Source: Escherichia phage vB_EcoD-Elw. From it: a stretch of DNA of 64,000 nt. How positions within the stretch are numbered: position 1 is the stretch's first letter; each line of letters opens with the position of its first letter. Position numbers and translations under genes: made by a program. The notes beneath the pieces were generated by a model. The model did not search any database and had not been told where the DNA came from. It worked only from the letters and a program-made list of their open reading frames with translations. The DNA lies in sequence record OR621298; one strand, given 5' to 3'. Shown one piece after another: positions 1-58,636 of the stretch.

Positions 1-109
1 GTCCACTGGCTGGCTAGATGAGAATGAGTCTCATTACCGCCCGGTACTTAGCAGGCTAATAGTCACGGCATGTTATCATTACACACCGTGACTATTTCAA
101 CTTTAATTA

Positions 110-9014: not shown

Positions 9015-9155
9015 GAACGACGGGGATTAGCTCCCCGTTTTTCCATGCCTCCAGTTAAATACCCCCTTGTTTTAGTATCCCCACCAAAATTAAACGCGTT
9101 AGAATGCGATCTAGGACGTTTTAGCGGTATATTAGAATTATTCACTACATAGGAA

Positions 9156-9175
9156 TACTGTATATTTATACAGTA
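9156..9175. promoter_or_regulatory. near-consensus LexA box TACTGTATATTTATACAGTA
   Basis: 19 of 20 match to TACTGTATATATATACAGTA; immediately followed by a DnaA box. Confidence 0.5.
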
Positions 9176-9183
9176 GGATAAGC

Positions 9184-9265
9184 TGTGGATAAGTCTGTTA
9201 ATAACGCCTCAAAATGGCTAGGATTCTGTCAAGTCAAATCGTGCTGTTAATAAGTCTGTGGATAA
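9184..9265. promoter_or_regulatory. DnaA boxes (9184-9192 and 9257-9265, both TGTGGATAA)
   Basis: Two perfect reverse-complement matches to TTATCCACA within direct repeats of aagtctgttaataa. Confidence 0.55.
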
Positions 9266-9289
9266 CTTAAATAATAGTGTTTCTCACTT

Positions 9290-9440
9290 CCATTCTTAAA
9301 TGCAAATCATTATCATTCGCATTTCACTTTCTAAATGAGAATCATTTCACTTCTTGAATAGTTCTCATTTCACTTTTTAAATGCGAATTATTATCATTCT
9401 CATTTCGCTTTTTAAATGATTCTTATTATCATTCGCATTC
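9290..9440. repeat. degenerate tandem repeats (~25-30 bp unit, catttcacttt...aaatgagaat) with internal inverted symmetry
   Basis: 4-5 reiterations of TCATTTCACTTTYTRAATG-like units. Confidence 0.6.
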
Positions 9441-9444
9441 AGGC

Positions 9445-9466
9445 GCGCAGGGCAATTGCCCTGCGC
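9445..9466. repeat. 22-bp perfect palindrome followed by a T-run
   Basis: GCGCAGGGCAATTGCCCTGCGC then TTTT; terminator-like or protein-binding site. Confidence 0.7.
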
Positions 9467-9470
9467 TTTT

Positions 9471-10070
9471 GTGCAAATCCGACATTGCTCCACGGGTGTT
9501 ACGTGCGGGCGTGTATGTGCGAATCCGACAATTTTTGGTAGTGTGCAAATCCGACCCGAAAAATTTTTATAGTGTGCAAATCCGACAATGAATTTTCCCA
9601 AAAACTCCAGCAATCCGATGCTGCGCATCAATCCTGTGGAATTAGCTAGAATATGTGCAAATCCGACATGGGTTTATTTGTGCGAATCCGACAAGATTTT
9701 TGTGACTTTGATTGGAGGGTGTGTGATTGTATGGGTTTGAGGAGAAGATGAGAGAGCGAGAAAAATTTGAGGGAACTGTGAGAGGGGCGCAGGATTGGTG
9801 CGGAGCACCTGATTTGCGGGGATTTTGGGGAAGAGTTGAGATAATTTGGGAAGATTTGGGATAGGTGCAGATAAAGTAAAATTTTATTAGCAAAACGAGG
9901 CAAAATAGCTTGACAAGTGAAAATTTCTGTGGCTCTAAAAACTCAGGCAATCATGGGCCTTCGGCCCGAAATAATGCTGCTATTTTCAGGAGATTATATG
10001 TTCCTAAAAACTTAGGCGTTTGTGCAAATCCGATCATAAATTTCTAGAAATGCAGTGTGCAAATCCGACA
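9471..10070 (+). repeat. array of 8 direct 14-bp iteron-like repeats GTGC(A/G)AATCCGACA
   Basis: Copies at 9471, 9517, 9543, 9574, 9655, 9680, 10022, 10057, all same orientation, irregular spacing; non-coding. Confidence 0.8.
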
Positions 10071-10578
10071 GTAATTTCTGGAAATGTGTTTTCAAAAAAT
10101 GTCTTCTAGAAATAACCGCCCTCCCTATAACCGCCTATTGCTGGAGTTTCTAGGAACAATGAAAACCGCCTGAGTTGGCTAGAGAAACAGATTTAAAGTT
10201 TAATGTAAACTCTAGAGTTAGTGCTCAACTATTCCTAGAAACTCAGGAGTCTAGAAGAAAGTGTTGTGCCATCCTAGCAGATGAGCAGCAACAGGTGTAT
10301 CATCTTGAACACAGATATTGCCTTTAAATATTCTCTTGTAAATAAAATTAATAGTTTCCCCAATCTCGTGAGTCTGCTGCTCTAGGCGTTCAAGATCTGT
10401 ATGCTAATCCCGTGAGAACTGCTGCAGAATACATCCTATCGCCGGAGGCGTCGGTGTACTCTTCGAGTTGGGATAGCAATAATCTTGTTGCCTAGAGCTA
10501 AAAACAGAAGTTGTTTTTAATCTATGAGATTATTATAACATGTTTGGGTATGAGAATGCAAGAAATTTTTGCTACTAT

Positions 10579-11310
10579 TTATTCCTTTCGTCTGTATTTG
10601 AGAACGATGCCCTTCGAAACCATGAAGAGGAAAGTTGCTAGATAGGAATGTGGGCTTTTAAGCGCATCATAATCTACTGTCCCGAAAGAACCTTCGCCGA
10701 AAACTTCAGAGTTCTCAAATGTAGGAAGTAAACGTGCCAATCCTACAGCTCCTATAATCTTAAAGAATTGATCCCAGTCATTTAACATTGCTTTATGTGC
10801 AGACTGTAAGATTAATGGCATCTCTAGGTTCTTTTCGAGACATAGATGAACCTGCGCAATCGTAGAGGCAATCCCTAGCAACACTTCATCTTTTGTATAA
10901 GGGAATCCAGTATCTTTTCTTTGGAGTCTAGGAAGATGATCATATTCACAACGTTTAGGTGGGATGAACTTTTCCTCGGGATATAATTCTAATGCAACTC
11001 TAACGTTTCCTTCTTTAAATACTGGAAGTTCCTGATCTGCAAAGACATGATATGAATCTGCCTTGAACCCTACAATCTTATCACCAACAGAATTGATGAT
11101 CTTTCTCATTGCAATATAAGAAGGGGATAGAGTTACGAATTTTTCTTCTTTATTATATTTAACAATTCCAGCTTCTGTATAAGCTGCGGGATGAAACTCA
11201 GAACAGAATGCTACTGCATGAGCTTCATCAGGAGTTAGTTCAGAAACACATTTGCCGTCAGCATTCTTAGCCAGCTTAATAATAGTCTTTAAATTCTCAC
11301 TAATACTCAT
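10579..11310 (-). CDS. hypothetical protein
   Basis: 243-aa ORF from track. Confidence 0.55.
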   Translation of the reverse strand: MSISENLKTIIKLAKNADGKCVSELTPDEAHAVAFCSEFHPAAYTEAGIVKYNKEEKFVTLSPSYIAMRKIINSVGDKIVGFKADSYHVFADQELPVFKEGNVRVALELYPEEKFIPPKRCEYDHLPRLQRKDTGFPYTKDEVLLGIASTIAQVHLCLEKNLEMPLILQSAHKAMLNDWDQFFKIIGAVGLARLLPTFENSEVFGEGSFGTVDYDALKSPHSYLATFLFMVSKGIVLKYRRKE

Positions 11311-11311
11311 A

Positions 11312-11695
11312 TCAAGCCTCCTGAACTTTGTCTGCCGGGTAGAAATCTTCTAGTGAATTGTAGTGAGCGGTAAAGAATTCAAAACTTAAGTAATCAGCAG
11401 TATTCTGGATGTAACGCAGCTCATTAATAAAAGACTCTTTGAAGATCTTGCGATTAGGTTTGAGCTTTATAATTTCTTCTACCAAAGTCTCTAGGATCTT
11501 TTTTGCGTCTTCAACTTGGTATGCAGCTAAGGCTTGAGATTCATAGATTACTTCATCTACTCCATTAGTAATTAAAGATACTTCTATGATTATTCCATCC
11601 TCTTCTGGATGGACTCTATTTGCATCCAGCTCACGAATGATAACACGAGTTTGACTAGTTATTTGACGATTTAACGCGATTGTGTAATGTAACAT
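11312..11695 (-). CDS. hypothetical protein
   Basis: 127-aa ORF, 1-nt gap to downstream gene. Confidence 0.55.
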   Translation of the reverse strand: MLHYTIALNRQITSQTRVIIRELDANRVHPEEDGIIIEVSLITNGVDEVIYESQALAAYQVEDAKKILETLVEEIIKLKPNRKIFKESFINELRYIQNTADYLSFEFFTAHYNSLEDFYPADKVQEA

Positions 11696-11767
11696 ATTAT
11701 TCTCCTAATGTGCCTCCCCCAGTAAAAGGTCTGAGGAGGCGTAGACCTATAAATTAATTAACGATCT

Positions 11768-12500
11768 TTATTGATCCTTTTTACTCTCATTAAGAGCAGC
11801 CCCCAACGCCTCAAGGATAGTATCATTTATGCTCCCAGGCCTAAGATTATTAAAGTGAGTAACATAGATGGGACTTTTAAAACCTTCAGCATTCGCAGGT
11901 GCTACGCTTCGCATATCAGATTCAAAAGCTTCTTGAGTATGTTTCAGCTGTACAGAAGGCCCATAATCTTCACCAACTCGATATGAGGAACTATTTTCTA
12001 TAGTGCCGCCGCATGGAACATTGTGCATTTCCGACGTTATTTTAGAATTAAATGCGATACCACTTTTGGTCCAGGAACCTCCAACAGTCACAGGAGTACT
12101 AGGACGATTCACCTCAGTCTTCACGAGTTTATAACCAGCATCTATTAATGCGTTAATAAGGTTATCAGCTGGAATCCGAGCCTTGCCAAAGATCTTACGA
12201 GCTTCTTTTAATTTATGCTCAAGATCTTTACAGGCTTTAATATCAGTGTACGAGTTTATAACCAGCATCTATTAATGCGTTAATAAGGTTATCAGCTGGA
12301 ATCCGAGCCTTGCCAAAGATCTTACGAGCTTCTTTTAATTTATGCTCAAGATCTTTACAGGCTTTAATATCAGTGTGCGCAAAGGTTAATTTCATAGATT
12401 TGAACTGTACAGTGGCAGTTAAGTCTTTAAAATCATAATCCCATGTATTTAATTCATGGTCTGGTACTACTTGAACAGGTTGTTGTGCATATAAAGTCAT
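11768..12500 (-). pseudogene. gene disrupted by an internal 127-bp tandem duplication (track ORFs 12243..12500 and 11768..12268)
   Basis: The two ORFs share an identical 42-aa stretch (TDIKACKDLEHKLKEARKIF...); 127 is not a multiple of 3, so the duplication shifts the frame. Confidence 0.5.
12123..12376. repeat. perfect 127-bp tandem direct duplication (12123-12249 and 12250-12376)
   Basis: Two adjacent identical copies read directly from the sequence. Confidence 0.85.
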
Positions 12501-12685
12501 TACTTATTCTCCAATTTGTCTAACAGCTTATGAGCTGCTAGGTTATATTGTTTAAGTTCACGGTTAAGGATTTGGTTCTCACACTTTAACTCTAAATTCT
12601 TATTATTAAGAATATTACAGATTAGTAGAAGTGCTAGTATAACTAGCAGGGAACCTACTAGCATTAAAAGAAAAAGAGTTTCCAT
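12500..12685 (-). CDS. small membrane protein
   Basis: 61-aa ORF, N-terminal TM then charged tail. Confidence 0.45.
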   Translation of the reverse strand: METLFLLMLVGSLLVILALLLICNILNNKNLELKCENQILNRELKQYNLAAHKLLDKLENK

Positions 12686-13187: not shown

Positions 13188-13728
13188 TACTTATCTCCAT
13201 TCTTAGCTTTGAAAACTTATTATACCAAACTATATGATTATCGTCAATTACAAATTTATGGTAACATGCTGGTACGGTATAAGTTCCATAATCCGTGACG
13301 CGCTGCACAACCTTGTGTGCACACAGTCGACAACCATGCCCTTCTAAATGAGATCTAGCAGTCTGCCAGTAATAACCATCATGATCTGGACAATAAATCT
13401 CGACTTGCTGCTGCATTGTTTTATAATTTACACGCTCATATCCGAAGAAAGCCCCGTGAGCTGCAACGGCTTTCTTGATAAATATAAGGTTTAGTGCTTC
13501 TTGCTGGAAGTCGGGATGTAGCTGCTTAATCTTAGTTCTATTAATAGAACCATCCGATTTAATGAACCTATTTATTGGAAAGTTGTTAGCTTCCTCGATT
13601 AATAATTCATTTACTTTCTCTCTCATATTAAATAGTCTCACAGTTAAGGTAGAAACATTCGTAAGCATCTCCAGTAAACTCTTTATCTTGTAGTAAACAC
13701 TTAGTTTGGTCTTCCGGTACTCCAGCAT
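13180..13728 (-). CDS. hypothetical Cys/His-rich protein (possible zinc-binding)
   Basis: 182-aa ORF with CPDHDGYYW...HGCRLCAH cluster; start may be later. Confidence 0.4.
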   Translation of the reverse strand: MLEYRKTKLSVYYKIKSLLEMLTNVSTLTVRLFNMREKVNELLIEEANNFPINRFIKSDGSINRTKIKQLHPDFQQEALNLIFIKKAVAAHGAFFGYERVNYKTMQQQVEIYCPDHDGYYWQTARSHLEGHGCRLCAHKVVQRVTDYGTYTVPACYHKFVIDDNHIVWYNKFSKLRMEISSE

Positions 13729-27949: not shown

Positions 27950-28025
27950 TGGTAGTTAGTAGTGGATTTGAACCACTGTAGTCGCTCCGTATGAAGGAGG
28001 TGCATAACCACTCTGCCAACTAACT
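27950..28025 (-). tRNA. tRNA anticodon CAT (Met or Ile-lysidine)
   Basis: Hand fold: 7-bp acceptor AGTTAGT/ACTAACT, T-loop TTCAAAT, anticodon loop TTCATAC, encoded CCA. Confidence 0.55.
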
Positions 28026-28121
28026 GTTATGTTTTACTAGACTAAGTAAGTATTCTTTATACTCTTTAGACCAATTAGCTTTTTTAAACTTTCCTGGACG
28101 CATAGTCTTAATTCCTAGATT

Positions 28122-28198
28122 TGGTACTCCGGGAGGGATTTAAACCCCCGATCTCTCGGTTATCAGCCGAGTGCTTTAGATCGCTAAGCTACCGAAGT
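28122..28198 (-). tRNA. tRNA-Ile (GAT)
   Basis: Hand fold: anticodon arm CTCGG-CTGATAA-CCGAG, acceptor with one G-U, encoded CCA. Confidence 0.6.
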
Positions 28199-28213
28199 AT
28201 TAGAATATTTACA

Positions 28214-28504
28214 TCATACACTGTCTAAGTAAGAAGTATAATGGAATTTAGCTTCTCCAGTCTTATCTACTTCTACCTCAGTTCGTGGTACTTGACGAAC
28301 CACACCATGAATCATCTTATAGCGAATGCCTTTAGCTGGTTCATGATCTTTTGGGAATACTTGTTTAACCGTTACTACTTTATATCCTTCACGCGGTGTT
28401 AACACTACTACTTGATCACCTTCTTTGATTTTCCAAGAAGATGGAAATTCATAGGTATATCTTTGACCACCAGTTTGGAATACTACAGAAAGATAACGTT
28501 TCAT
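28214..28504 (-). CDS. hypothetical protein
   Basis: 96-aa ORF; RBS GAGAGGGAAA. Confidence 0.45.
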   Translation of the reverse strand: MKRYLSVVFQTGGQRYTYEFPSSWKIKEGDQVVVLTPREGYKVVTVKQVFPKDHEPAKGIRYKMIHGVVRQVPRTEVEVDKTGEAKFHYTSYLDSV

Positions 28505-28578
28505 TTGGTTTCCCTCTCATTAATTTATATAGATAGTATAACAAGAAATAAGAGAGAAGGCAAATGAATTTTTAAATT

Positions 28579-28653
28579 TGGTGCTCCCACCAGGAATCGA
28601 ACCCGGTTCAGATGCTTACAAGGCAACTGCATCGCCAGCAATGCTTTAGGAGC
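28579..28653 (-). tRNA. tRNA-Thr (TGT)
   Basis: Hand fold: anticodon loop CTTGTAA, T-loop TTCGATT, CCA encoded. Confidence 0.55.
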
Positions 28654-28820
28654 GATGATCCCGTTATTTCAACGGGATTTCTTTTTCAATAACAGGAGAC
28701 TTATCAGTCATAACTGTCATTGCCATTTGTTGTAGAAATTCAAAGGTGAAGGCTACACGTTCTTCACCAATCTCTACTTCTACACGTTTCTTTTGTTTAT
28801 CGATCTTGACTTTTAGGTTG

Positions 28821-29042
28821 TCAGCCATCTTCGGGTTCTCGTTGCTGCGCTACTTCTAGCCAGTCTGGTAGAAGAAACTTTGTACGAAATTCTTCGTAAG
28901 TTTCTTTGGGATAAAAGCTAAAACCTCCTTTCTCATCATTCAGGATAACAGAACCGTCAGTTTGTTCGTATGCTCGGTATGTTTCCCCAATAACAATAAC
29001 TCGTTTATCAGTACTTTTATTACGAAACTCAAAAACGTGCAT
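28821..29042 (-). CDS. hypothetical protein
   Basis: 73-aa ORF. Confidence 0.4.
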   Translation of the reverse strand: MHVFEFRNKSTDKRVIVIGETYRAYEQTDGSVILNDEKGGFSFYPKETYEEFRTKFLLPDWLEVAQQREPEDG

Positions 29043-29058
29043 AATGTTCCCTTAAAGT

Positions 29059-29134
29059 TGGAGCGGCTAGAGGGAATCGAACCCTACTCAGCGAGGCTTG
29101 GAAGGCCTGCGACACAACCCGTGTGCTTAACCGC
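29059..29134 (-). tRNA. tRNA-Gly (TCC)
   Basis: Hand fold: anticodon loop CTTCCAA, T-loop TTCGATT, acceptor GCGGTTA/TAGCCGC, CCA encoded. Confidence 0.6.
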
Positions 29135-29142
29135 TTATTGTT

Positions 29143-29220
29143 TGGCAGGGGATATTGGATTTGAACCAATGATCTCGACTTCAAAGGCCGAAGCTTTAGA
29201 CCAGGCTAAGCTAATCCCCA
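29143..29220 (-). tRNA. tRNA-Gln (TTG)
   Basis: Hand fold: anticodon arm TCGGC-CTTTGAA-GTCGA; position 1:72 unpaired (U-U); CCA encoded. Confidence 0.55.
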
Positions 29221-29226
29221 ACTGTT

Positions 29227-29302
29227 TGGCAGAAGGTAGTAGGTTCGAACCACTGATCGGGGTTTCAGAGACCCCAGCCTTAACCGACTTGGCTAACCTT
29301 CT
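29227..29302 (-). tRNA. tRNA-Gln (CTG)
   Basis: Hand fold: perfect acceptor AGAAGGT/ACCTTCT, anticodon arm GGGGT-CTCTGAA-ACCCC, CCA encoded. Confidence 0.6.
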
Positions 29303-29486
29303 TCTTAATACTTTTTGGATCTTCTAAACGTTTGCCTTCATGATCTACTCGAATAACTCCGCACCCTTCGCAAACCACAACTACACCATAACCTTCTTTG
29401 ACCTCAGCTTCTGTAATCAAACCAGAAAGATCACCAGTATCTCTGCCCCACATATCAATGGAGCATTGTTTGCAGAAATCAGCCAT
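29280..29486 (-). CDS. small zinc-ribbon-like protein
   Basis: 68-aa ORF with CKQC and CEGCG pairs; 3' end overlaps tRNA-Gln by ~23 nt. Confidence 0.4.
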   Translation of the reverse strand: MADFCKQCSIDMWGRDTGDLSGLITEAEVKEGYGVVVVCEGCGVIRVDHEGKRLEDPKSIKKKVSQVG

Positions 29487-29511
29487 ATTTTATTTCCTAT
29501 TTAAGTTAATT

Positions 29512-29588
29512 TGGGGTGGCTAGTGGAATTCGAATCCACATAGGCCTGATTCACAATCAGGATCATTAACCAATTATGATATAGCCAC
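29512..29588 (-). tRNA. tRNA-His (GTG)
   Basis: Hand fold: acceptor GTGGCTA/TAGCCAC, anticodon arm CCTGA-TTGTGAA-TCAGG, T-loop TTCGAAT, CCA encoded. Confidence 0.65.
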
Positions 29589-30088
29589 AATTGAAAACTC
29601 GCAGGGTTAGCGAAACCTTCCTCAATTAGCATGTTCTAGAATACTAATCAAGTTATCTCCTATTGCACGCAGCTCAAGACGAGTACGAATTTTCAATTGT
29701 GGTGGCTCTCAGAAACTCTTCTACTCTAGCCTTAGCAGCTTACTCCCGAACGCATGTCGGGGAAGTCTTACTAAGAGCTTCGAATAGCACCGTTACACTT
29801 TGAGCCATAGATGTATCAAGAAGCAGAAGGACTTGAACCTTCACGAGATAGACCATTTATCTCAGCCGCTTTATGAGGTATGTTGCAGGGAGTGGATGTT
29901 CCCTATAAACCTTTTAGGCAGCCCCGTCTACCGATTCCAGCATACTTCAAGAATTTTTATAAACCAGCAGAAGCCTCATTTAAAGCATCAACAATAGCTT
30001 CACGTTGGGTCATTCCATACCCAGTGGAATCTAGGTGTGGCAAATAAGCCATCCATCCCTTATCTGTTTCATGAAGGCATGCTTTAAA

Positions 30089-30107
30089 TTTTTTTTTTTT
30101 TTTTTTT
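30089..30107. repeat. 19-nt poly(T) homopolymer (poly(A) on the coding minus strand)
   Basis: 19 consecutive T read directly; lies inside a short minus-strand ORF that starts at 30143 behind RBS AAGGAA. Confidence 0.9.
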
Positions 30108-30163
30108 ACCGTCCTTCATTGTTACAGTAACTGTTTTGCTCATAATGATTCCTTATAGTTAAT

Positions 30164-30253
30164 TGGAGGAAGGTAATGGAGTCGAACCATCACCGTATCA
30201 CTACAGCGGGCTAGTTTTCAAGACTAGTTGCGTACCACTACGCCCTACCTTCC
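30164..30253 (-). tRNA. tRNA-Ser (TGA), class II
   Basis: 90 nt; acceptor GGAAGGT/ACCTTCC, anticodon arm CTAGT-CTTGAAA-ACTAG, long variable arm, CCA encoded. Confidence 0.6.
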
Positions 30254-30260
30254 ATTTGTT

Positions 30261-30351
30261 TGGCGGAAGAGGAGAGATTTGAACTCTCAAGCCGTTTTAC
30301 CAGTCAGCCACTTTCCAAGCGGTTTTCGTCGCCAATTCGATTTGCTCTTCC
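30261..30351 (-). tRNA. tRNA-Ser (GGA), class II
   Basis: 91 nt; acceptor GGAAGAG/CTCTTCC, T-arm GAGAG-TTCAAAT-CTCTC, long variable arm; anticodon assignment tentative. Confidence 0.45.
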
Positions 30352-30384
30352 AATAATAAGATGATGCCTCTATCACACCAGGCA

Positions 30385-30460
30385 GTTACGCCTCGCTGGG
30401 ATTCGAACCCATTAAAACAGCTCAACCGAGATAGTAGATTTAATTTACTCTGACCATCAA
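30385..30460 (-). other. tRNA-like element with canonical T-arm but no foldable acceptor stem
   Basis: GGGTTCGAATCCC T-arm motif present; no 7-bp acceptor pairing or CCA found by hand. Confidence 0.3.
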
Positions 30461-30463
30461 ATT

Positions 30464-30540
30464 TGGTGCGTGACAAGGGATTCGAACCCTCAAAACCCGA
30501 CTTCTAAGGACGGTATGTATGCCAATTCCATCAATCACGC
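30464..30540 (-). tRNA. tRNA with anticodon TAG (Leu-type anticodon) in a short 77-nt class-I-like body
   Basis: Acceptor GCGTGAT/GTCACGC (one G-U), T-arm GAGGG-TTCGAAT-CCCTT, anticodon loop CTTAGAA, discriminator A, CCA encoded. Confidence 0.45.
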
Positions 30541-30545
30541 GTATT

Positions 30546-30620
30546 TGGTGGACAAAGAGGGACTCGAACCCTCCCTACCAGATTGCAAATCTGGTGTGCT
30601 CCCGCTGACACTATTCGCCC
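30546..30620 (-). tRNA. tRNA-Ala (TGC)
   Basis: Anticodon arm CCAGA-TTTGCAA-TCTGG, T-arm GAGGG-TTCGAGT-CCCTC, acceptor with two G-U pairs, CCA encoded. Confidence 0.6.
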
Positions 30621-30997
30621 AAATTTATTAATCCAGCATGTACTTCTCTATGGCAGTTAGAGCATAATAGTACGCACTTTTTAAGTTCTGCTATTACTAC
30701 TTCTCTGTTTCTACGAGAAGTTCTAAACCTTGCAATGGAGTATTCCTTTTCTTCTGGATTAGTATGGTGGAAATCTAAGGCTTGTTTACACCTATTATAT
30801 CCACAAATACTACATTCTAATACAGGAAATACTTCTTTAATTAATTCTTCATGTCCAGCTACTCGTTCAGCTTTTTCACATGCTTTACATGTTGGCTTCC
30901 ACTTCTTTGTGCCATTAGGAGTAAATCCATTCGAATAAAAATATTCGGTTGTTAACGGATATTCATTCCCACAGGCTCTACATGTTTTTGTACACAC
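30611..30997 (-). CDS. HNH homing endonuclease
   Basis: 128-aa ORF; N-terminal Cys pairs and C-terminal HNH signature (DFHHTNP...CSNCH); 3' end overlaps tRNA-Ala by 10 nt. Confidence 0.7.
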   Translation of the reverse strand: MCTKTCRACGNEYPLTTEYFYSNGFTPNGTKKWKPTCKACEKAERVAGHEELIKEVFPVLECSICGYNRCKQALDFHHTNPEEKEYSIARFRTSRRNREVVIAELKKCVLLCSNCHREVHAGLINLGE

Positions 30998-31357
30998 TGC
31001 GTTAACCCCTGTAAGTTTACTAAGGCTATTAGCTCGGCGTAACTACAGCACCTTCGCTTCGAGCGGAAGGAACTGCGTCATCTCGCAAACCCGATACACT
31101 ATTCAGTTGCCGCTGAATCTAGTGGACTAATCTAGAACTTCTCCCGAATTGTAGGGATCGTGCTTTTTGGCAGCCAGTCCTAGGTCGAGCTAATACCTTA
31201 GTGAACTAAATTGATGGATACCAGACTAATTTTGCTACGACGTTTATCCTGAGGATCTCTTTTTCGGTAGCTCTGCTAGTGTAGACGTCATACACCTGGT
31301 ATCTAGGCAGCTATTTTCGCATCAATTTATATAAATATTATAACAAGAAATTAAGCA

Positions 31358-31720
31358 TTAAGCAAGTACATTTTTAGCGATTTCCTGTAGTTCCTTTACA
31401 TCACGAACGTAAAGGTAATCAGAGCTTCCAGAGTGCATACTTTGCATAACCACACCTTCATCTGGTGCATTATCCTTCAAGGTAATTCCTAGCCAGAACT
31501 CGGCAAAACTAGGTGTTATCTCACCTTGACTTGCCTTGAATACATCATATTCTGTAAGTTCTTGACCAGTAGATAATCCCAAATAGACAGAACTAAGATC
31601 AATCTCTTTATGAGACTCATAAAATTCCGATAGATCTTTTTCCATATCCCAGCCATGCTGCAATGCGAACTCCATTGTCACATGACCGAAATAACCTTGA
31701 ATCTTGTTTGATAATTGCAT
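31358..31720 (-). CDS. hypothetical protein
   Basis: Track ORF 31358..31726 starts at TTG; trimmed to ATG with RBS AAGGA. Confidence 0.45.
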   Translation of the reverse strand: MQLSNKIQGYFGHVTMEFALQHGWDMEKDLSEFYESHKEIDLSSVYLGLSTGQELTEYDVFKASQGEITPSFAEFWLGITLKDNAPDEGVVMQSMHSGSSDYLYVRDVKELQEIAKNVLA

Positions 31721-31745
31721 TTGCAATTCCTTATTTTGAGTTAAT

Positions 31746-31819
31746 TGGTACTCGGTGATAGAATCGAACTATCACAACCGCCGTGTAAAGACGGGGTTCT
31801 CCCATTAAACTAACCGAGC
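31746..31819 (-). tRNA. tRNA-Val (TAC)
   Basis: 74 nt; anticodon arm CCGTC-TTTACAC-GGCGG, T-arm GATAG-TTCGATT-CTATC, CCA encoded. Confidence 0.6.
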
Positions 31820-31823
31820 AATT

Positions 31824-31901
31824 TGGTAGATCGCCTGGGATTCGAACCCAGAACTGACGGATTAAAGGTCCGCTACTCTTATCCAGTTGAGCTAGCGATC
31901 T
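31824..31901 (-). tRNA. tRNA-Lys (TTT)
   Basis: Perfect acceptor AGATCGC/GCGATCT, T-arm CTGGG-TTCGAAT-CCCAG, anticodon loop CCTTTAA (C at position 33 is unusual). Confidence 0.5.
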
Positions 31902-31902
31902 A

Positions 31903-32070
31903 TTAGTAACCATTATATACCTCTTTAATAGAGTGAACTTTCAAGTAAGGGTGATTAGTATTAAACTCTGCCATTACTTCATCCCAATTTTTACCATAAT
32001 GTGCAAGTAAGGATCTTGAGGTATTATTACCTAAACGTTTGTCACTTACTACTAATCGAAATACTTTCAT
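31903..32070 (-). CDS. small protein (55 aa)
   Basis: Not in ORF track; ATG with RBS AGAGGA; translated by hand; fills the gap between tRNA genes. Confidence 0.35.
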   Translation of the reverse strand: MKVFRLVVSDKRLGNNTSRSLLAHYGKNWDEVMAEFNTNHPYLKVHSIKEVYNGY

Positions 32071-32090
32071 TTCGAAATCCTCTATTAAAG

Positions 32091-32167
32091 TGGAAGCGGG
32101 TGCAGGAATCGAACCTACCTCTTTCTAGCTTATGAGACTAGCGATCTCTACCAGAGATCTAACCCGC
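32091..32167 (-). tRNA. tRNA anticodon CAT (Met or Ile-lysidine)
   Basis: Anticodon arm CTAGT-CTCATAA-GCTAG at canonical position; acceptor and T-stem contain mismatches. Confidence 0.45.
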
Positions 32168-32174
32168 AATTGTT

Positions 32175-32252
32175 TGGTCTCCGTGGGAGGATTTGAACCC
32201 CCGACCCTATCGCCCCAAACGAAACGCTCTGGCCAAACTGAGCTACACGGAG
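32175..32252 (-). tRNA. tRNA-Pro (TGG)
   Basis: Acceptor CTCCGTG/CACGGAG, D-stem GCTC/GAGC, anticodon loop TTTGGGG, T-loop TTCAAAT, CCA encoded. Confidence 0.55.
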
Positions 32253-32256
32253 AATA

Positions 32257-32415
32257 TTATTTCTTCAACCACAACAAAGATAAGCCCAGCATACTAAAGC
32301 CGCTAACTAATCCGATACATTTTTCTTCTATAGTAAAAGTATCTAGATTAAATGCTGTTATAGCTATTGGCATACACCATAATGTCATAAAAACTTGAGC
32401 TATCTTGTGTTTCAT
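32257..32415 (-). CDS. small hydrophobic protein (52 aa)
   Basis: Not in ORF track; ATG with RBS GAGAAGGAAAG; sits immediately upstream of tRNA-Pro. Confidence 0.35.
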   Translation of the reverse strand: MKHKIAQVFMTLWCMPIAITAFNLDTFTIEEKCIGLVSGFSMLGLSLLWLKK

Positions 32416-32725
32416 TTTGCTTTCCTTCTCTTCACTTTATAAAATATATTATACAGATAATATAGCAGAATAGCAAATGAATTTTTAATAAATTTACTTA
32501 TTGTGTAGGCCACCTGGAGGCTACCAACCCCACGGCTGACAAAGAAGTTTGCGAGACCTCTCTTAAATGCCAGAATAGACCCGCCGATCTATCGGAACCT
32601 ACATAATAAGTAAACTTTCGTTTACTTACGCCCCGTTAGAGGGACTTTAGCGACTAGAACCGGCCGGAAACTTCATCGCCTTGTTTATTCAGAAGTCCGT
32701 TCTCTAGGGAGCAGAAATCTAAATT

Positions 32726-32800
32726 TGGTGGAGTTTGGGAGACTACGTGTTACTCCCTCTGTCCGAAGTAGGATAGTGCTTAACCGTTTAGCTGAACCCC
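32726..32800 (-). other. tRNA-like element (acceptor- and D-arm-like stems, CCA end, non-canonical T and anticodon arms)
   Basis: Plus-strand AAATTTGG junction as at true tRNA 3' ends; acceptor GGGGTTC/AAACTCC pairs 6 of 7; 5-bp GGGAG/CTCCC stem with 11-nt loop replaces the T-arm. Confidence 0.3.
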
Positions 32801-32979
32801 TTTAAATATTTATACGTTTTATCTAACAACTCTTGTTTAGAGATTATACCATCACGATATTCAGTAATAAAATTATCTATGTTGGAGTCCTTTGATACAA
32901 CGTTATCAGATAGCTCTGTGAATTTATTTGCTAAAAGATCTAATTCTTTGTAATTCACAAAACCTCCAGAATATGCCAT
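32788..32979 (-). CDS. hypothetical protein
   Basis: 63-aa ORF. Confidence 0.4.
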   Translation of the reverse strand: MAYSGGFVNYKELDLLANKFTELSDNVVSKDSNIDNFITEYRDGIISKQELLDKTYKYLKGFS

Positions 32980-33219
32980 TCTAGACAGGACTCGAACCTG
33001 CTATCACTTGTGCGGACTTACGAGAACCATTCTTTCACTCGAATCGAACGAGCTTCTGCCCTAGCCAAGCTGGTTTCCCCATCAACCACGCTAGAATGTT
33101 TGATTGTTTTCAGTGCAAGAGTCCGAGTCTTGGACACGACCGCTTCGCAAGTACATAGGCAGCTTATCATGAGTCAGCACTTCCGAATTGCTAGCTCCGT
33201 GTTCTGCACTGAGATTTTG

Positions 33220-33567
33220 TTAATTTAATAGTAAAGTACGATCTACTTCACCATTAATTGTTCGGCATTCCTCTGGAATTGCTGGTGTAGTCTTATATTC
33301 CCACCATTCAGAACCATCATATTCACCACGTTCTAACCAAGTTCCATCAGTAAACCATACGTTACCATAAAGCAATTGTCCACCGAAACCAGAATCATAT
33401 TTAAAGTCTAGATTATTTAGAAAATCTTCAATATCTTTTTCTGTATAACCTACGGGTAATACCCAAACTTCTTTGTCTCCATAATAACCGAATTCTATCT
33501 TAATACACTTAACTTCAGAATTAGTATTCTTTAGGGCAAGTAACAATTCTTCTTTAGCATTAATCAT
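33220..33567 (-). CDS. hypothetical protein
   Basis: 115-aa ORF. Confidence 0.45.
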   Translation of the reverse strand: MINAKEELLLALKNTNSEVKCIKIEFGYYGDKEVWVLPVGYTEKDIEDFLNNLDFKYDSGFGGQLLYGNVWFTDGTWLERGEYDGSEWWEYKTTPAIPEECRTINGEVDRTLLLN

Positions 33568-33593
33568 AGCATATTTCTCATACTAAATTAATT

Positions 33594-33669
33594 TGGTACA
33601 CCCACTAGGACTTGAACCTAGAACCCTCCGCTTAAGAGGCGGTAGCTCTAACCATTGAGCTATGGGTGT
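33594..33669 (-). tRNA. tRNA-Lys (CTT)
   Basis: 76 nt with canonical numbering: acceptor ACACCCA/TGGGTGT, D-stem GCTC/GAGC, anticodon loop CTCTTAA, T-arm CTAGG-TTCAAGT-CCTAG, CCA. Confidence 0.6.
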
Positions 33670-33675
33670 ATTAAA

Positions 33676-33828
33676 TTACTTTTCCAGTTCATCAGCTATG
33701 GCTTTGATTTTTTCAAAGTTTACATCACTAATAATGATACCTTCCAGTGACAGAGATATTCTAGCATTTTTCATAGCAGATTCTTTTATCTGCTCTATTT
33801 CTTCTGGAGTAAACTCCCTACGTTCCAT
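33676..33828 (-). CDS. small acidic protein (50 aa)
   Basis: Not in ORF track; ATG with RBS AAGGTAGG; between two tRNA genes. Confidence 0.3.
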   Translation of the reverse strand: MERREFTPEEIEQIKESAMKNARISLSLEGIIISDVNFEKIKAIADELEK

Positions 33829-33845
33829 AGCTAACCTACCTTATT

Positions 33846-33922
33846 TGGCGCGACCGATGGGATTTGAACCCACATTCCCTCCCGTGACAGGAGAGTACCA
33901 TTACCAAGCCAGCCCCGGTCGC
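33846..33922 (-). tRNA. tRNA-Asp (GTC)
   Basis: Acceptor GCGACCG/CGGTCGC, anticodon arm CTCTC-CTGTCAC-GGGAG, T-loop TTCAAAT, CCA encoded. Confidence 0.6.
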
Positions 33923-33931
33923 ATAATTCAT

Positions 33932-34117
33932 TTACTCAGCTTTGAGCTTTTCAATAGCTGCATTAAGTTCTTTAAGAAACTCTTTTCGTACATTAAGACG
34001 ATTGAGACTTACTAGTATATCGTGTTTAAGTTCTTCGATGTATTTCTTTTCAACTTCAATATTGTTGATAGTGCTATCACGATGAACTTCTAGCTGCGCA
34101 ATTACATTCTTGGACAT
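33932..34117 (-). CDS. hypothetical coiled-coil protein
   Basis: 61-aa ORF. Confidence 0.4.
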   Translation of the reverse strand: MSKNVIAQLEVHRDSTINNIEVEKKYIEELKHDILVSLNRLNVRKEFLKELNAAIEKLKAE

Positions 34118-34144
34118 GCTTGTTTCCTCAGTTATTAATGAAAA

Positions 34145-34215
34145 TGGTATCTGTGGCTGAATTCGATGTCAGCAATGATAGCTGGTTGGCTACCGGTTTA
34201 CTTAACTCTACACAG
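34145..34215 (-). other. tRNA-like element with 8-nt T-loop and imperfect acceptor
   Basis: 3' ...GATACCA end and GCTGA/TCAGC stem around a CATCGAAT loop; no standard anticodon arm found. Confidence 0.25.
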
Positions 34216-34219
34216 AATT

Positions 34220-34297
34220 TGGCGGTTCCTGCTGGATTCGAACCAGCAAACCTCAACTTAACAAGATGCCGCTCTAACCAATTAGAGCTAAGGAACC
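34220..34297 (-). tRNA. tRNA-Asn (GTT)
   Basis: Perfect acceptor GGTTCCT/AGGAACC, D-stem GCTC/GAGC, T-arm GCTGG-TTCGAAT-CCAGC, anticodon loop TTGTTAA on a weak 3-bp stem. Confidence 0.5.
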
Positions 34298-34792
34298 ATA
34301 TAAGTCAGAACTAGAGTTAATACGTTCTAGATATTTACTAAGATCCCTAGAATTTATACTAAACCACTCATGTTCTTTTAAATCTTTGAAATACTGGTGA
34401 ATTAGTTTTTCACCTTTTCGTTTGTCAAACCAAAACGACCAATGCTCTAATTTATAATCCCTATATGGGGAATAGGTCTGATATTGAGCTAATCTCTCTT
34501 TTGGATTTTGACTCATACCTATTTTATACTGATTTTTCCATGCAGGATTACTAATACAGTATACAAAACCTTCAGAAATAGGAAGTTTATTTTCCTGCTT
34601 AAACTTTATAAAGGAAAGTGCGGCAAGTTTTCTCGAATACATAGTATTCGTATTCTTTTTGGTATTACCATTAGTTCCTGAAAGATTTATATATTCTTCC
34701 ATAAATCTTTGGATTAGTTCTGCGGTTATACAGAAAGGCCCATTAGTAACAACGCCTTTCTTTACCAAACTATCAAAAACTTTTGTATGCAC
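34274..34792 (-). CDS. T5orf172-type GIY-YIG-like domain protein (putative homing endonuclease)
   Basis: 172-aa ORF (GTG start in track); GFVYCISNPAWKNQYKIGMSQNPKERL resembles the GIY-YIG-like T5orf172 domain; 3' end overlaps tRNA-Asn. Confidence 0.6.
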   Translation of the reverse strand: MHTKVFDSLVKKGVVTNGPFCITAELIQRFMEEYINLSGTNGNTKKNTNTMYSRKLAALSFIKFKQENKLPISEGFVYCISNPAWKNQYKIGMSQNPKERLAQYQTYSPYRDYKLEHWSFWFDKRKGEKLIHQYFKDLKEHEWFSINSRDLSKYLERINSSSDLYGSLALIG

Positions 34793-34813
34793 TACTTCTT
34801 TCCTTTAGTAAAT

Positions 34814-34889
34814 TGGACGACCGCATGAGATTTGAACTCACATAAAAAGGATTTGCAATCCTTCGCCTAAGCCCTTCAGCCAACGGTCG
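34814..34889 (-). tRNA. tRNA-Cys (GCA)
   Basis: Anticodon arm AAGGA-TTGCAAA-TCCTT, T-loop TTCAAAT, acceptor CGACCGT/GCGGTCG, CCA encoded. Confidence 0.6.
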
Positions 34890-34958
34890 GTTTATCTTGT
34901 TCTGTCATGTTGCTTCTCCAGTTCAATTTATGTAATTATTATACAGAACTTTTGGAAA

Positions 34959-35231
34959 CTAAGCAACTACATTTTTTAAGAATTTGATGCCTTTCTTTTT
35001 CTTCTTATATTTCCACGTTAATGGATTCTGTCGATTATGAACGCTTGAGATCTTTGTCTCGTCAAAGTTCTTCAATATCATGTAATCACAGGATAATTGT
35101 TCTAGTAGAATGTGATCACCGTCAAAAGCGTATACATAAGGCTGTTGACTAACACGATAATGATAGACTTTGTTAATTCTACGTTTCAGCGACTTATCAG
35201 CGCAGTAAATAAAGAAGTTTTCAGGATGCAT
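34959..35231 (-). CDS. hypothetical protein
   Basis: Track ORF 34959..35246 starts at TTG; trimmed to ATG (MHPENFF) with RBS AAGGAG. Confidence 0.45.
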   Translation of the reverse strand: MHPENFFIYCADKSLKRRINKVYHYRVSQQPYVYAFDGDHILLEQLSCDYMILKNFDETKISSVHNRQNPLTWKYKKKKKGIKFLKNVVA

Positions 35232-35248
35232 CAGCAGCTCCTTCAATT

Positions 35249-35323
35249 TGGTGCACCCTGTTCGTATCGAACGAACCTCTCAAGCTCTTCAGGCAAGCGC
35301 TAATCCATCTCAGCTAAAGGTGC
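35249..35323 (-). tRNA. tRNA-Phe (GAA)
   Basis: Perfect T-arm GTTCG-TTCGATA-CGAAC, acceptor GCACCTT/AGGGTGC; anticodon loop CTGAAGA on a weak stem. Confidence 0.45.
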
Positions 35324-35329
35324 AAATTT

Positions 35330-35406
35330 TGGCAAACCTACTAGGACTCGAACCTAGACCGTACGGTTTTGGAGACCGACATGCTGTCCAGTAACACTCT
35401 AGGAAT
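35330..35406 (-). tRNA. tRNA-Trp (CCA)
   Basis: Anticodon arm TCGGT-CTCCAAA-ACCGT, T-arm CTAGG-TTCGAGT-CCTAG; acceptor stem has two U-U mismatches. Confidence 0.4.
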
Positions 35407-35414
35407 GCAGAAAT

Positions 35415-35491
35415 TGGCGTCCTGTGCGGGGATCGAACCCGCAAATCCTACCTTGAAAGGGTAGTGACTTTACCAGTTTGTCTAACAGGAC
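35415..35491 (-). tRNA. tRNA-Glu (TTC)
   Basis: Perfect acceptor GTCCTGT/ACAGGAC, anticodon arm CTACC-CTTTCAA-GGTAG, T-arm GCGGG-TTCGATC-CCCGC, CCA. Confidence 0.65.
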
Positions 35492-35498
35492 TTAAATT

Positions 35499-35589
35499 TG
35501 GTGTTGGATGATGGAGTCGAACCACCCGAGACCCTTCCGAGTCGGCAGATTTACAGTCTGCTTCGCTACCTCTACGATACTAATCCAAC
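35499..35589 (-). tRNA. tRNA-Tyr (GTA), class II
   Basis: 91 nt; perfect acceptor GTTGGAT/ATCCAAC, anticodon arm GCAGA-CTGTAAA-TCTGC, long variable arm, CCA. Confidence 0.6.
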
Positions 35590-35719
35590 ATATTTAGAAG
35601 TATTCAAAAATTCTCATTTAAACACTTTTAAATATGCTTTCAAATTAGGTAACTATTATACCAAGTTTTAAGGCACTGAGCAAGTCAAATTTTAAAGAAC
35701 TTGCTCAGTGCTATATTAG

Positions 35720-35995
35720 TTAGTCGAACTTAGGAGTGACAGTTAAGGAGAACGGAAGTTCGAAAACTTCTTCACCCTCATTACTAACGGTAACTACACG
35801 ACCTTTAAGTTCAGACATTAAAATATCAATATCAGCTTTTGCATCTGGAGCCATGCCAGCTTCAATACATTTAGCTTTAACCTCCGGTAGAAGATCTACG
35901 TTATAGAGATAGAGCCACTCAATCTCACCTTCCCAGTCTTCCCAGGATTTGCAGATTGCACTTTCAATACCAGTTGCTACAACACGATTTTGCAT
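35720..35995 (-). CDS. hypothetical protein
   Basis: 91-aa ORF; RBS GAAGGAG. Confidence 0.5.
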   Translation of the reverse strand: MQNRVVATGIESAICKSWEDWEGEIEWLYLYNVDLLPEVKAKCIEAGMAPDAKADIDILMSELKGRVVTVSNEGEEVFELPFSLTVTPKFD

Positions 35996-36085
35996 TCGTT
36001 AACTCCTTCATCAATTTATACAACTATTATATCAGAAATTTAAAGCAAAAGGCAAGTACATTTTTAAAAATTCTGTTTGGAGGAG

Positions 36086-36292
36086 CTAAACTCCAGATTC
36101 TTCAGCTAAGTCTAGGCTAATAAGAGTTATAGCCATAATTGCTGCACCGTGTTCTTTTTCTCCGGTGTTTTTAGCAGAGTCTATAATAGTCTTAATCTGT
36201 TCGTAATAGCCTTTTACTTCTTGTTCAATACCTGCCTCGGCTATCATGCCTTTAGTCATGATTCGTTGCATAGTAATTTCACGGTTAGCCAT
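36086..36292 (-). CDS. hypothetical protein
   Basis: 68-aa ORF. Confidence 0.45.
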   Translation of the reverse strand: MANREITMQRIMTKGMIAEAGIEQEVKGYYEQIKTIIDSAKNTGEKEHGAAIMAITLISLDLAEESGV

Positions 36293-36452
36293 GATGTTTC
36301 TCCAGCTTCATTTTTAATAGTTTACAAATGAAATCAACGTCTTCATCTGTACCTAGATCTCTATCTTCAAGAGTTGCCTTGAAGTTTTTAGTCAATTCCA
36401 TGAGGATAACTTCTCTAGAACGACGTGTTGGCGGAGGTGGATGTCTATACAT
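36285..36452 (-). CDS. small Pro-rich protein (55 aa)
   Basis: Not in ORF track; hand-translated; 8-nt overlap with the downstream start codon. Confidence 0.35.
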   Translation of the reverse strand: MYRHPPPPTRRSREVILMELTKNFKATLEDRDLGTDEDVDFICKLLKMKLEKHHG

Positions 36453-36467
36453 CTTATTTCCTTAGTT

Positions 36468-36544
36468 TGGTAGGGGTGGTGGGATTCGAACCCACAAAAC
36501 CTGAATTTTAAGTCCAGTACCTATGCCAATTCGATTACACCCCC
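36468..36544 (-). tRNA. tRNA with anticodon TAA (Leu-type anticodon) in a short 77-nt class-I-like body
   Basis: Perfect anticodon arm CTGGA-CTTAAAA-TTCAG, T-arm GTGGG-TTCGAAT-CCCAC, discriminator A, CCA; variable region only 5 nt. Confidence 0.5.
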
Positions 36545-36551
36545 GTGTAGT

Positions 36552-36740
36552 TTAGTCAATTACTTTTGAGGCTTCAAGGTAGTCGATATAGTGTATGTTT
36601 TCTACCGTAATCATATAATCTGCCACTTTATCCATAGCTTGGGCTTCAGAGGTAGCTCTGGCTAACCTATATCCTTTTTTATATTCATCCGGGTATTCTC
36701 TATCTTGGATAAACACAACATAAACTATATATAGATCCAT
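36552..36740 (-). CDS. hypothetical protein
   Basis: 62-aa ORF. Confidence 0.4.
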   Translation of the reverse strand: MDLYIVYVVFIQDREYPDEYKKGYRLARATSEAQAMDKVADYMITVENIHYIDYLEASKVID

Positions 36741-36759
36741 TTGTGACCTCTATTTAATT

Positions 36760-36837
36760 TGGTGGCTCCCCGAGGATTCGAACCTACGTACCTTCCGGTT
36801 ATGAGCCGGGTGCTCATACCATATGAGCTTGAGAACC
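36760..36837 (-). tRNA. tRNA anticodon CAT (Met or Ile-lysidine)
   Basis: Anticodon arm CCCGG-CTCATAA-CCGGA; acceptor pairs with two G-U; T-stem only 3 bp. Confidence 0.45.
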
Positions 36838-36843
36838 AGAATT

Positions 36844-36932
36844 TGGCGGAAGAAGCGGGAATCGAACCCACAAGGCTATATTTCAAACCGACAGATTAGC
36901 AATCTGCTGCAATACCGTTATGCTATTCTTCC
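36844..36932 (-). tRNA. tRNA-Ser (GCT), class II
   Basis: 89 nt; perfect acceptor GGAAGAA/TTCTTCC, anticodon arm GCAGA-TTGCTAA-TCTGT, long variable arm, T-loop TTCGATT, CCA. Confidence 0.6.
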
Positions 36933-36953
36933 GAATTTATAAGATATATTATA

Positions 36954-37472: not shown

Positions 37473-37502
37473 ATTTGGTTCCTCTTTCAAATTTATAGAT
37501 AT

Positions 37503-37531
37503 ATTATACAGAGAATTTAGCATTCAAGCAA
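37503..37531 (-). promoter_or_regulatory. T5-type early promoter
   Basis: -10 TATAAT, -35 TTGCTT, 17-bp spacer, conserved downstream box. Confidence 0.6.
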
Positions 37532-38721: not shown

Positions 38722-38742
38722 TATTAAGGGGAGGAGCCCATT

Positions 38743-58634: not shown

Positions 58635-58636
58635 AT

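What the first reader, a model, noticed from the sequence alone, without database searches (positions are those of the whole stretch)
12123..12376. Perfect 127-bp tandem duplication splits a ~200-aa gene into two ORFs
Two adjacent identical 127-bp copies. Because 127 is not divisible by 3, the reading frame is interrupted: track ORFs 12243..12500 and 11768..12268 share an identical 42-aa segment. This could be a recent duplication, a reversible on/off switch through recombination between the copies, or an assembly artefact.
Basis: seen in the sequence. Interest (0 to 1): 0.55.

Follow-up and report, generated by a model that had tools for sequence, protein, structure and literature searches.

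The report
Assembly-seam duplication in T5-like phage
The perfect 127-bp tandem duplication that breaks a conserved early gene of this T5-like phage is almost certainly not biology: it looks like the untrimmed 127-base end-overlap that the SPAdes assembler leaves on its contigs, carried into the interior when the genome was re-opened at the standard T5 start.

Summary
Window 12123-12249 and 12250-12376 are identical and adjacent, with no extra matching base on either side. On the minus strand they split the ortholog of phage T5 gene T5.019 into an 85-aa and a 166-aa ORF that share 42 aa. Removing one copy restores an intact 201-aa gene.

The window is the left end of a T5-like (Tequintavirus) genome. 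Every relative examined has one copy and an intact gene:
- T5, SP15 and a Logan read-assembly were checked directly at the DNA level.
- In the tblastn hits to 439 phage records, every listed row is one piece.
- The 120 best homolog clusters are all 198-206 aa.
- The copy-to-copy junction occurs in no public collection searched.

127 is the largest k-mer SPAdes allows. Published phage work describes 127-bp artificial overlaps at SPAdes contig ends, and PCR plus Sanger sequencing proved them artefactual in other phages. Window base 1 aligns to T5 base 2, so the record was re-opened after assembly, which would move an untrimmed seam inside the genome.

Best explanation: assembly or curation artefact (about 0.88). 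A genuine, very recent duplication cannot be excluded without reads (about 0.1). Nothing supports a programmed switch. The function of T5.019 remains unknown. Interest is low.

The parts
12123..12249 (.). Copy 1 of the 127-bp unit
   Evidence: TRF, string identity and the repeat finder family D3. It is 127/127 identical to the single copy in phage SP15.
12250..12376 (.). Copy 2 of the 127-bp unit. The boundary 12249/12250 is the presumed seam where the two contig ends were joined.
   Evidence: It is identical to copy 1. blastn HSPs against T5, SP15 and a Logan contig all break at 12249/12250 and overlap by exactly 127 bp on the subject.
11768..12500 (-). Ortholog of phage T5 gene T5.019 (PHROG 5271, function unknown), interrupted as deposited. 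It is 733 nt with the duplication and 606 nt (201 aa) once one copy is removed.
   Evidence: The collapsed ORF is intact. It aligns end to end with T5.019 (YP_006847.1, 202 aa). It matches PHROG 5271 at E=1.4e-101 over residues 3-199.
12243..12500 (-). 85-aa ORF: residues 1-84 of the T5.019 ortholog, then one out-of-frame residue and a stop
   Evidence: the ORF listing, compared with the collapsed protein.
11768..12268 (-). 166-aa ORF: 7 spurious N-terminal residues, then residues 43-201 of the T5.019 ortholog. No Shine-Dalgarno-like sequence lies just upstream of its ATG.
   Evidence: the ORF listing and the sequence read. The exact product is on record nowhere.
13219..13247 (-). Sigma-70-type promoter (TTGACG-17-TATAAT with extended -10 TG), likely driving the operon of T5.022-.021-.020-.019 orthologs. 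This is context, not part of the repeat.
   Evidence: Promoter scan, 11/12 matches. T5 has a promoter annotated at the equivalent place, 13212-13286.

Best explanation
The duplication is an assembly or curation artefact, not a feature of the phage DNA. T5-like phages have terminal repeats of about 10 kb, which short-read de Bruijn assemblers collapse, so the genome comes out as a cycle. SPAdes writes a cycle, or two neighbouring contigs, as linear sequence whose ends share exactly k bases, and k = 127 is its largest permitted value. The sequence was then re-opened so that it starts at the canonical T5 left terminus. The old contig ends were joined head to tail without trimming the overlap, which left two identical adjacent 127-mers inside the genome at an arbitrary place. 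That place happens to lie within the T5.019 ortholog. Because 127 = 3x42+1, the gene appears frameshifted into two ORFs. In the real phage the gene is most likely a single intact 201-codon ORF. Shown here: the length, the identity, the single copy in relatives, and the re-opening of the record. Inferred: that SPAdes with k=127 was used and that the seam was left untrimmed.
For: (1) The unit is exactly 127 bp, in 2.0 copies at 100% identity, with 0 bp of extension on either side. In my knowledge of the software, 127 is SPAdes' maximum k and its default top k for long reads.
(2) Published descriptions of the artefact:
- PMC8104045 removed 127-bp terminal repeats and then reopened the genome to match a reference.
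- PMC9331655 describes a phage with true 5.7-kb terminal repeats whose SPAdes contig lacked one repeat and carried a '127 bp DTR, assembly artefact'.
- PMC9206674 used PCR and Sanger sequencing to show a 64,089-bp SPAdes contig was really 63,962 bp 'due to a duplication of 127 bp ... at the assembly ends'.
- PMC10438801 found ~79-bp repeats inside re-oriented short-read phage assemblies, outside the terminal repeats, not matched by read depth, and shown by Sanger to be artefacts in most phages.
(3) Window base 1 aligns to base 2 of T5, and window base ~16 matches the record ends of other T5-like genomes. A de novo contig would not start there, so the sequence was re-opened by hand or by script.
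(4) Every relative has one copy:
- HSPs against T5, SP15 and a Logan read-assembly break at 12249/12250 and overlap by exactly 127 bp on the subject.
- SP15's single copy is 127/127 identical, and its gene is 606 nt, the same as the collapsed window gene.
- The junction query matches phage records only as two separated pieces.
- tblastn finds the gene in 439 records, and every listed row is one piece.
- The 120 best homolog clusters are all 198-206 aa.
(5) The 30-mer across the junction is absent from IMG/VR, JGI metagenome contigs and GTDB genome contigs.
(6) The gene shows no decay. dN/dS is 0.22-0.29 overall, and the part downstream of the apparent frameshift has no stops, with dN/dS of 0.28-0.40.
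Against: No reads, depth profile or assembly metadata are available, so the use of SPAdes with k=127 is inferred from the length alone. The same genome is not present in any searchable collection, so no independent assembly of this phage could be compared. A genuine duplication only a few generations old would also be perfect, unique to this isolate and free of decay. T5.019 has no known function and may be dispensable, so a real knock-out could be tolerated.
Confidence: 0.88

Rival explanations
1. This is a genuine, very recent tandem duplication in this phage isolate. It would have arisen by illegitimate recombination or replication error, and it frameshifts and inactivates a dispensable early gene (T5.019 ortholog). 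It would be lost again at appreciable frequency by homologous recombination between the copies.
For: The sequence as given contains it. Perfect identity and lack of decay in the downstream part are also what a very young duplication would show. The gene borders a mosaic region that differs among T5-like phages: 75%-coverage hits begin at about window 11770, and T5 has T5.018 where this window has two other ORFs. The gene has no known function, so dispensability is conceivable.
Against: The length would have to equal SPAdes' maximum k by coincidence. Real duplication lengths are spread over a wide range, so the chance of exactly 127 is about 1% or less (my estimate). There is no microhomology at the junction (0 bp either side), whereas slipped-strand duplications usually form between short direct repeats. 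No other example exists in the phage records matched or in the listed homolog clusters. The gene is under purifying selection. The record shows signs of post-assembly re-opening.
Confidence: 0.1
2. This is a programmed, reversible on/off switch. The phage would alternate between one-copy (gene on) and two-copy (gene off) states by recombination between the repeats, giving phase-variable expression of the early gene.
For: The only support is the formal property that a 127-bp tandem duplication (not a multiple of 3) toggles the reading frame and can revert by recombination.
Against: A selected switch should recur or be conserved. No relative carries two copies or the junction. Going from one copy to two has no templated mechanism here, since there are no flanking repeats or recombinase sites and no microhomology. 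The off-state products look accidental: an 85-aa stub, and a 166-aa ORF with no ribosome-binding site. No phage early-gene switch of this kind is known to me.
Confidence: 0.02

Closest known systems
SPAdes k-mer end-overlap artefact (127-bp artificial terminal repeat of contigs from circular or terminally redundant genomes)
   Same: It has exactly 127 bp, perfect identity and two copies, and it occurs in a phage whose long terminal repeats make short-read assemblies close into a circle. The duplication is absent from all relatives. This matches the cases in PMC5923482, PMC8104045, PMC9331655 and PMC9206674.
   Different: In those reports the two copies sit at opposite ends of the contig and were trimmed. 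Here they lie side by side inside the record, which is what results if the contig is rotated or concatenated before trimming.
Internal artefactual repeats in re-oriented short-read phage assemblies (PMC10438801, ~79-bp repeats in przondovirus genomes, disproved by Sanger)
   Same: A short perfect repeat inside the genome but outside the true terminal repeats, produced by short-read assembly and re-orientation and unsupported by read depth.
   Different: The length differs (~79 bp from Shovill/SPAdes against 127 bp here), and so does the phage family. In that study the artefact was proved experimentally. Here it is inferred.
Genuine tandem duplications in phage genomes (illegitimate recombination or slipped mispairing)
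   Same: A head-to-tail direct repeat that disrupts a reading frame and could be lost by homologous recombination.
   Different: Such events usually form between short direct repeats, but here there are 0 bp of junction microhomology. Nothing would tie their length to an assembler parameter.
Phage T5 gene T5.019 (YP_006847.1) / PHROG 5271
   Same: The collapsed gene is a full-length, syntenic ortholog. It sits in the same operon after the T5.022-.021-.020 orthologs, and its length is 201 aa against 202 aa.
   Different: As deposited, the window's copy is interrupted by the 127-bp duplication. No function is known for the family.

Membership tests
SPAdes contig-end overlap artefact carried into a re-opened genome | Repeat length equals the assembler's final k (127 is the SPAdes maximum) | tested here: met
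   The period is exactly 127 with 0 bp of extension on either side. That SPAdes leaves 127-bp overlaps is documented in PMC5923482 and PMC9206674.
SPAdes contig-end overlap artefact carried into a re-opened genome | Exactly two copies, 100% identical, directly adjacent | tested here: met
   TRF reports 2.0 copies, 100% matches and 0 indels. String equality confirmed.
SPAdes contig-end overlap artefact carried into a re-opened genome | The sequence was rotated or re-opened after assembly, so the contig ends became internal | tested here: met
   Window base 1 aligns to T5 base 2, the canonical left terminus. Window base ~16 matches the record ends of other T5-likes.
SPAdes contig-end overlap artefact carried into a re-opened genome | The genome type assembles as a cycle from short reads (circular, permuted or long direct terminal repeats) | tested here: met
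   The window is a Tequintavirus-type genome. T5 has a 10,219-bp terminal repeat. A long-DTR phage behaved this way in PMC9331655.
SPAdes contig-end overlap artefact carried into a re-opened genome | The duplication is absent from relatives and from independent assemblies | tested here: met
   T5, SP15 and a Logan contig have a single copy. The junction is absent from four collections. No split homologs were listed. No independent assembly of this same phage was available.
SPAdes contig-end overlap artefact carried into a re-opened genome | No sequencing reads span the copy-to-copy junction, and depth fits one copy | not testable with these tools
   No reads or depth data are available for the window.
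SPAdes contig-end overlap artefact carried into a re-opened genome | The record was actually assembled with SPAdes at k=127 | not testable with these tools
   The source record and its assembly metadata are not given.
Genuine slipped-strand / illegitimate-recombination tandem duplication | Short direct repeat (microhomology) at the duplication boundaries | tested here: not met
   There are 0 bases of identity beyond the two units on either side. This feature is typical rather than obligatory.
Genuine slipped-strand / illegitimate-recombination tandem duplication | The junction is physically present in the phage DNA | not testable with these tools
   This needs reads or PCR.
Phase-variable (reversible) gene switch | The same switch architecture recurs or is conserved in related genomes | tested here: not met
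   All relatives examined have a single copy and an intact gene of 198-206 aa.
Phase-variable (reversible) gene switch | Both states coexist in one population | not testable with these tools
   This needs population read data.
T5.019 / PHROG 5271 protein family (for the interrupted gene) | Full-length profile match | tested here: met
   Collapsed protein against phrog_5271: E=1.4e-101, residues 3-199 matched to profile positions 1-202 of 203.
T5.019 / PHROG 5271 protein family (for the interrupted gene) | Conserved position downstream of the T5.022-.021-.020 orthologs, just right of the left terminal repeat | tested here: met
   The ORF order in the window matches the T5, NBSal003, SP15 and Kenya-K16 annotations.

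The most novel reading that the evidence does not exclude
The duplication is physically real: a very young 127-bp tandem duplication in a T5-like phage that knocks out the conserved early gene T5.019 and reverts by recombination between the copies. The phage stock would then be a mixture of gene-on and gene-off genomes. That would show T5.019 is dispensable under the isolation conditions, and could hint at selection against it on that host.
Probability: 0.08. Interest if true: 0.3.

Novelty: not a real feature. Interest (0 to 1): 0.05.

Why it matters
The practical consequence is that the deposited record probably carries 127 spurious bases and a falsely split gene. That will propagate two bogus 'hypothetical proteins' (85 and 166 aa) into databases and shift every downstream coordinate. 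A perfect tandem or terminal repeat of 127, 99, 77 or 55 bp in a short-read assembly should be treated as an assembler seam until reads show otherwise. If the duplication were real, it would only show that an uncharacterised T5 early gene can be lost.

Tried and rejected
(1) I looked for an independent assembly of the same phage. Exact-product look-ups for three window ORFs found nothing. The closest homolog cluster is only 98% identical, and its Logan contig is a different phage at 95-98% DNA identity. A read-level proxy was therefore not possible.

(2) I searched for the junction 30-mer in IMG/VR, JGI metagenomes and GTDB genomes and found 0 hits.

(3) I tried to assign a function to T5.019:
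- Pfam gave no hit.
- NCBIfam gave only a chance-level Cas1 hit, E=0.08 at 12 bits against a cut-off of 71.7.
- PDB sequence search gave only calmodulin at E=0.6.
- AlphaFold2 with a 40-sequence alignment gave a poor model (mean pLDDT 43; only residues ~19-89 reach ~70).
- Foldseek against the PDB gave nothing below E=0.4, with TM <= 0.15.
The function stays unknown.

(4) Literature searches for T5.019 or YP_006847 found nothing relevant. One apparent '127 bp' hit in a T5-like phage paper (PMC12630848) was only the genome size, '36,127 bp'.

(5) I considered a programmed frameshift producing a protein with a duplicated 42-aa segment. I rejected it because it is not conserved anywhere and no slippery-site rationale exists.

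(6) I considered a link to the T5 nick sites or the injection-stop signal. I rejected it because the repeat lies about 2 kb beyond the terminal repeat, inside a coding sequence.

(7) I did not survey other GenBank T5-like records for k-sized seams. That would have cost many calls for little added weight.

Full report
OBSERVATION. The repeat is there exactly as described. Tandem Repeats Finder reports a single array at window 12123-12376 with period 127, 2.0 copies, 100% matches and no indels. A direct comparison shows 12123-12249 and 12250-12376 are identical strings, and the identity does not extend by a single base on either side. It is the only perfect long direct repeat in the 64-kb window. 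On the minus strand there are two overlapping ORFs, 12243..12500 (85 aa) and 11768..12268 (166 aa), which share a 42-aa segment. Removing one copy yields one uninterrupted 606-nt ORF of 201 aa.

WHAT THE LOCUS IS. The window is the left part of a T5-like phage genome (Demerecviridae, Tequintavirus). The first 25 kb match many such phages at 92-95% identity over more than 90% of their length, and window coordinates track T5 coordinates. The interrupted gene is the ortholog of T5.019 (YP_006847.1, 202 aa, 'hypothetical protein'). It is the last conserved gene of a small early operon (T5.022-.021-.020-.019) just to the right of the 10.2-kb left terminal repeat. A strong sigma-70-type promoter lies at 13247-13219, where T5 has an annotated promoter. 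The collapsed protein matches PHROG 5271 (unknown function) end to end at E=1.4e-101. It has no Pfam, NCBIfam or PDB relative. An AlphaFold2 model from a 40-sequence alignment was poor (mean pLDDT 43), and Foldseek found no similar fold. Its function remains unknown.

RELATIVES HAVE ONE COPY. I aligned window 11700-12560 to T5, to SP15 and to a Logan read-assembly contig from SRR24907992. Each time there were two HSPs that break exactly at 12249/12250 and overlap by exactly 127 bp on the subject, which is the signature of a duplication present only in the query. SP15's single copy is 127/127 identical to the window unit, and its gene is 606 nt, the same as the collapsed window gene. A 91-nt query across the junction matches phage records only as two separated pieces. 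tblastn finds the gene in 439 phage records, 290 of them covering at least 80% of the protein, and every listed row is one piece. The 120 best of 268 homolog clusters in a 5.8-billion-protein collection are all 198-206 aa. The 30-mer spanning the junction is absent from IMG/VR, JGI metagenome contigs and GTDB genomes. The gene is under purifying selection (dN/dS 0.22-0.29). The portion downstream of the apparent frameshift is free of stops and gives dN/dS of 0.28-0.40.

WHY AN ARTEFACT IS THE BEST EXPLANATION. The decisive detail is the length. 127 is the largest k-mer SPAdes accepts and its top default for long Illumina reads (my knowledge of the software). A de Bruijn assembler writes a cyclic path, or two adjoining contigs, with exactly k bases repeated at the ends. 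This is well documented for phages:
- PMC8104045 removed 127-bp terminal repeats before the genome was 'reopened' to match a reference.
[quoted passage not shown] One of them has genuine 5.7-kb terminal repeats that SPAdes had collapsed, which is the situation expected for T5-like phages.
- PMC9206674 used PCR and Sanger sequencing to show that a 64,089-bp SPAdes contig represented a 63,962-bp genome 'due to a duplication of 127 bp ... at the assembly ends'.
- PMC10438801 describes the internal form of the artefact. Repeats of about 79 bp lay inside re-oriented short-read phage assemblies, outside the true terminal repeats. They were not reflected in read depth, and Sanger sequencing disproved them in most phages.

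The present record was clearly re-opened after assembly. Its first base aligns to base 2 of the T5 genome, the canonical left terminus, and base ~16 matches the record ends of other T5-like genomes. A de novo contig would not begin there. If the contig is rotated, or doubled and cut, without first trimming the k-mer overlap, the two copies end up side by side at the old contig ends. That point is arbitrary with respect to genes, and here it falls inside T5.019. All the sequence-level predictions of this model hold: exact length k, perfect identity, exactly two copies, no junction microhomology, uniqueness to this record, and no decay of the 'broken' gene.

RIVALS. A genuine, very young duplication would also be perfect and unique, and without reads I cannot exclude it. 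It would, however, need a coincidence of length with an assembler parameter, which I estimate at about 1% or less. It also lacks the microhomology usual for slipped-strand events. I give it about 0.1. A programmed reversible switch has no support. Nothing comparable is seen in any relative, there is no mechanism for regenerating the two-copy state, and the off-state ORFs look accidental, with no ribosome-binding site before the 166-aa ORF. I give it about 0.02.

LIMITS. The phage itself is not in any collection I could query, so no independent assembly or read-derived contig of the same genome could be compared. The use of SPAdes is inferred from the length alone. Read mapping or a single PCR across 12060-12440 would settle the matter: about 254 bp for one copy against about 381 bp for two.

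VERDICT. This is not a real biological feature and interest is low. The useful outcomes are a correction to the record (delete 127 bp and merge the two ORFs into one 201-aa T5.019 ortholog) and a general warning about k-sized perfect repeats.

Noticed in passing
window 16230-54172 (minus-strand elements) and 56320-63147 (plus-strand elements): Dispersed families of about 65-nt repeats (17, 8 and 3 copies, 60-89% identical). Read on the coding strand they contain TTGCTT ... TATAAT(A) followed by an AT-rich leader and GAGAG. They look like the classic strong T5 early promoters with their ribosome-binding regions. The switch of strand near 55 kb marks a change in the direction of transcription.
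   Followed up: no
window 9270-9439: Three overlapping copies of a ~54-nt direct repeat (70-74% identical). They fall at coordinates that correspond to T5's annotated injection stop signal (9140-10149), near the end of the left terminal repeat.
   Followed up: no
window 27950-40540, minus strand: A cluster of 24 tRNA genes, including two Met, two Gln, two Lys, two Leu and two Ser. This is typical of T5-like phages.
   Followed up: no
window 10579-11695, minus strand: The two ORFs downstream of the T5.019 ortholog (243 aa and 127 aa) are a mosaic segment. T5 has a different gene (T5.018) there, SP15 and Kenya-K16 have other ORFs, and only some relatives such as NBSal003 and Stp1 share this arrangement. 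Many megablast hits begin abruptly at about window 11770. In a Logan relative a T5orf172/MUG113-domain ORF lies two genes downstream of T5.019, after a 243-aa ORF, and SIA3lw has an annotated homing endonuclease a few genes upstream.
   Followed up: partly
T5.019 family (collapsed window gene, residues 19-89): Only the N-terminal part of the protein (three strands, two helices, then a strand) was modelled with moderate confidence (pLDDT about 70-80). The C-terminal 110 residues are highly conserved in sequence, with many invariant residues including H117, C121, G122-G123 and H145, but were modelled as disordered. This is a conserved T5 early protein with no recognisable fold.
   Followed up: partly
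window 1-100 vs T5 1-100: The extreme left terminus is conserved for the first ~9 bases (GTCCACTG, matching T5 bases 2-9) and then diverges with indels until about base 90, after which identity is near-perfect. The window lacks T5's first base.
   Followed up: no
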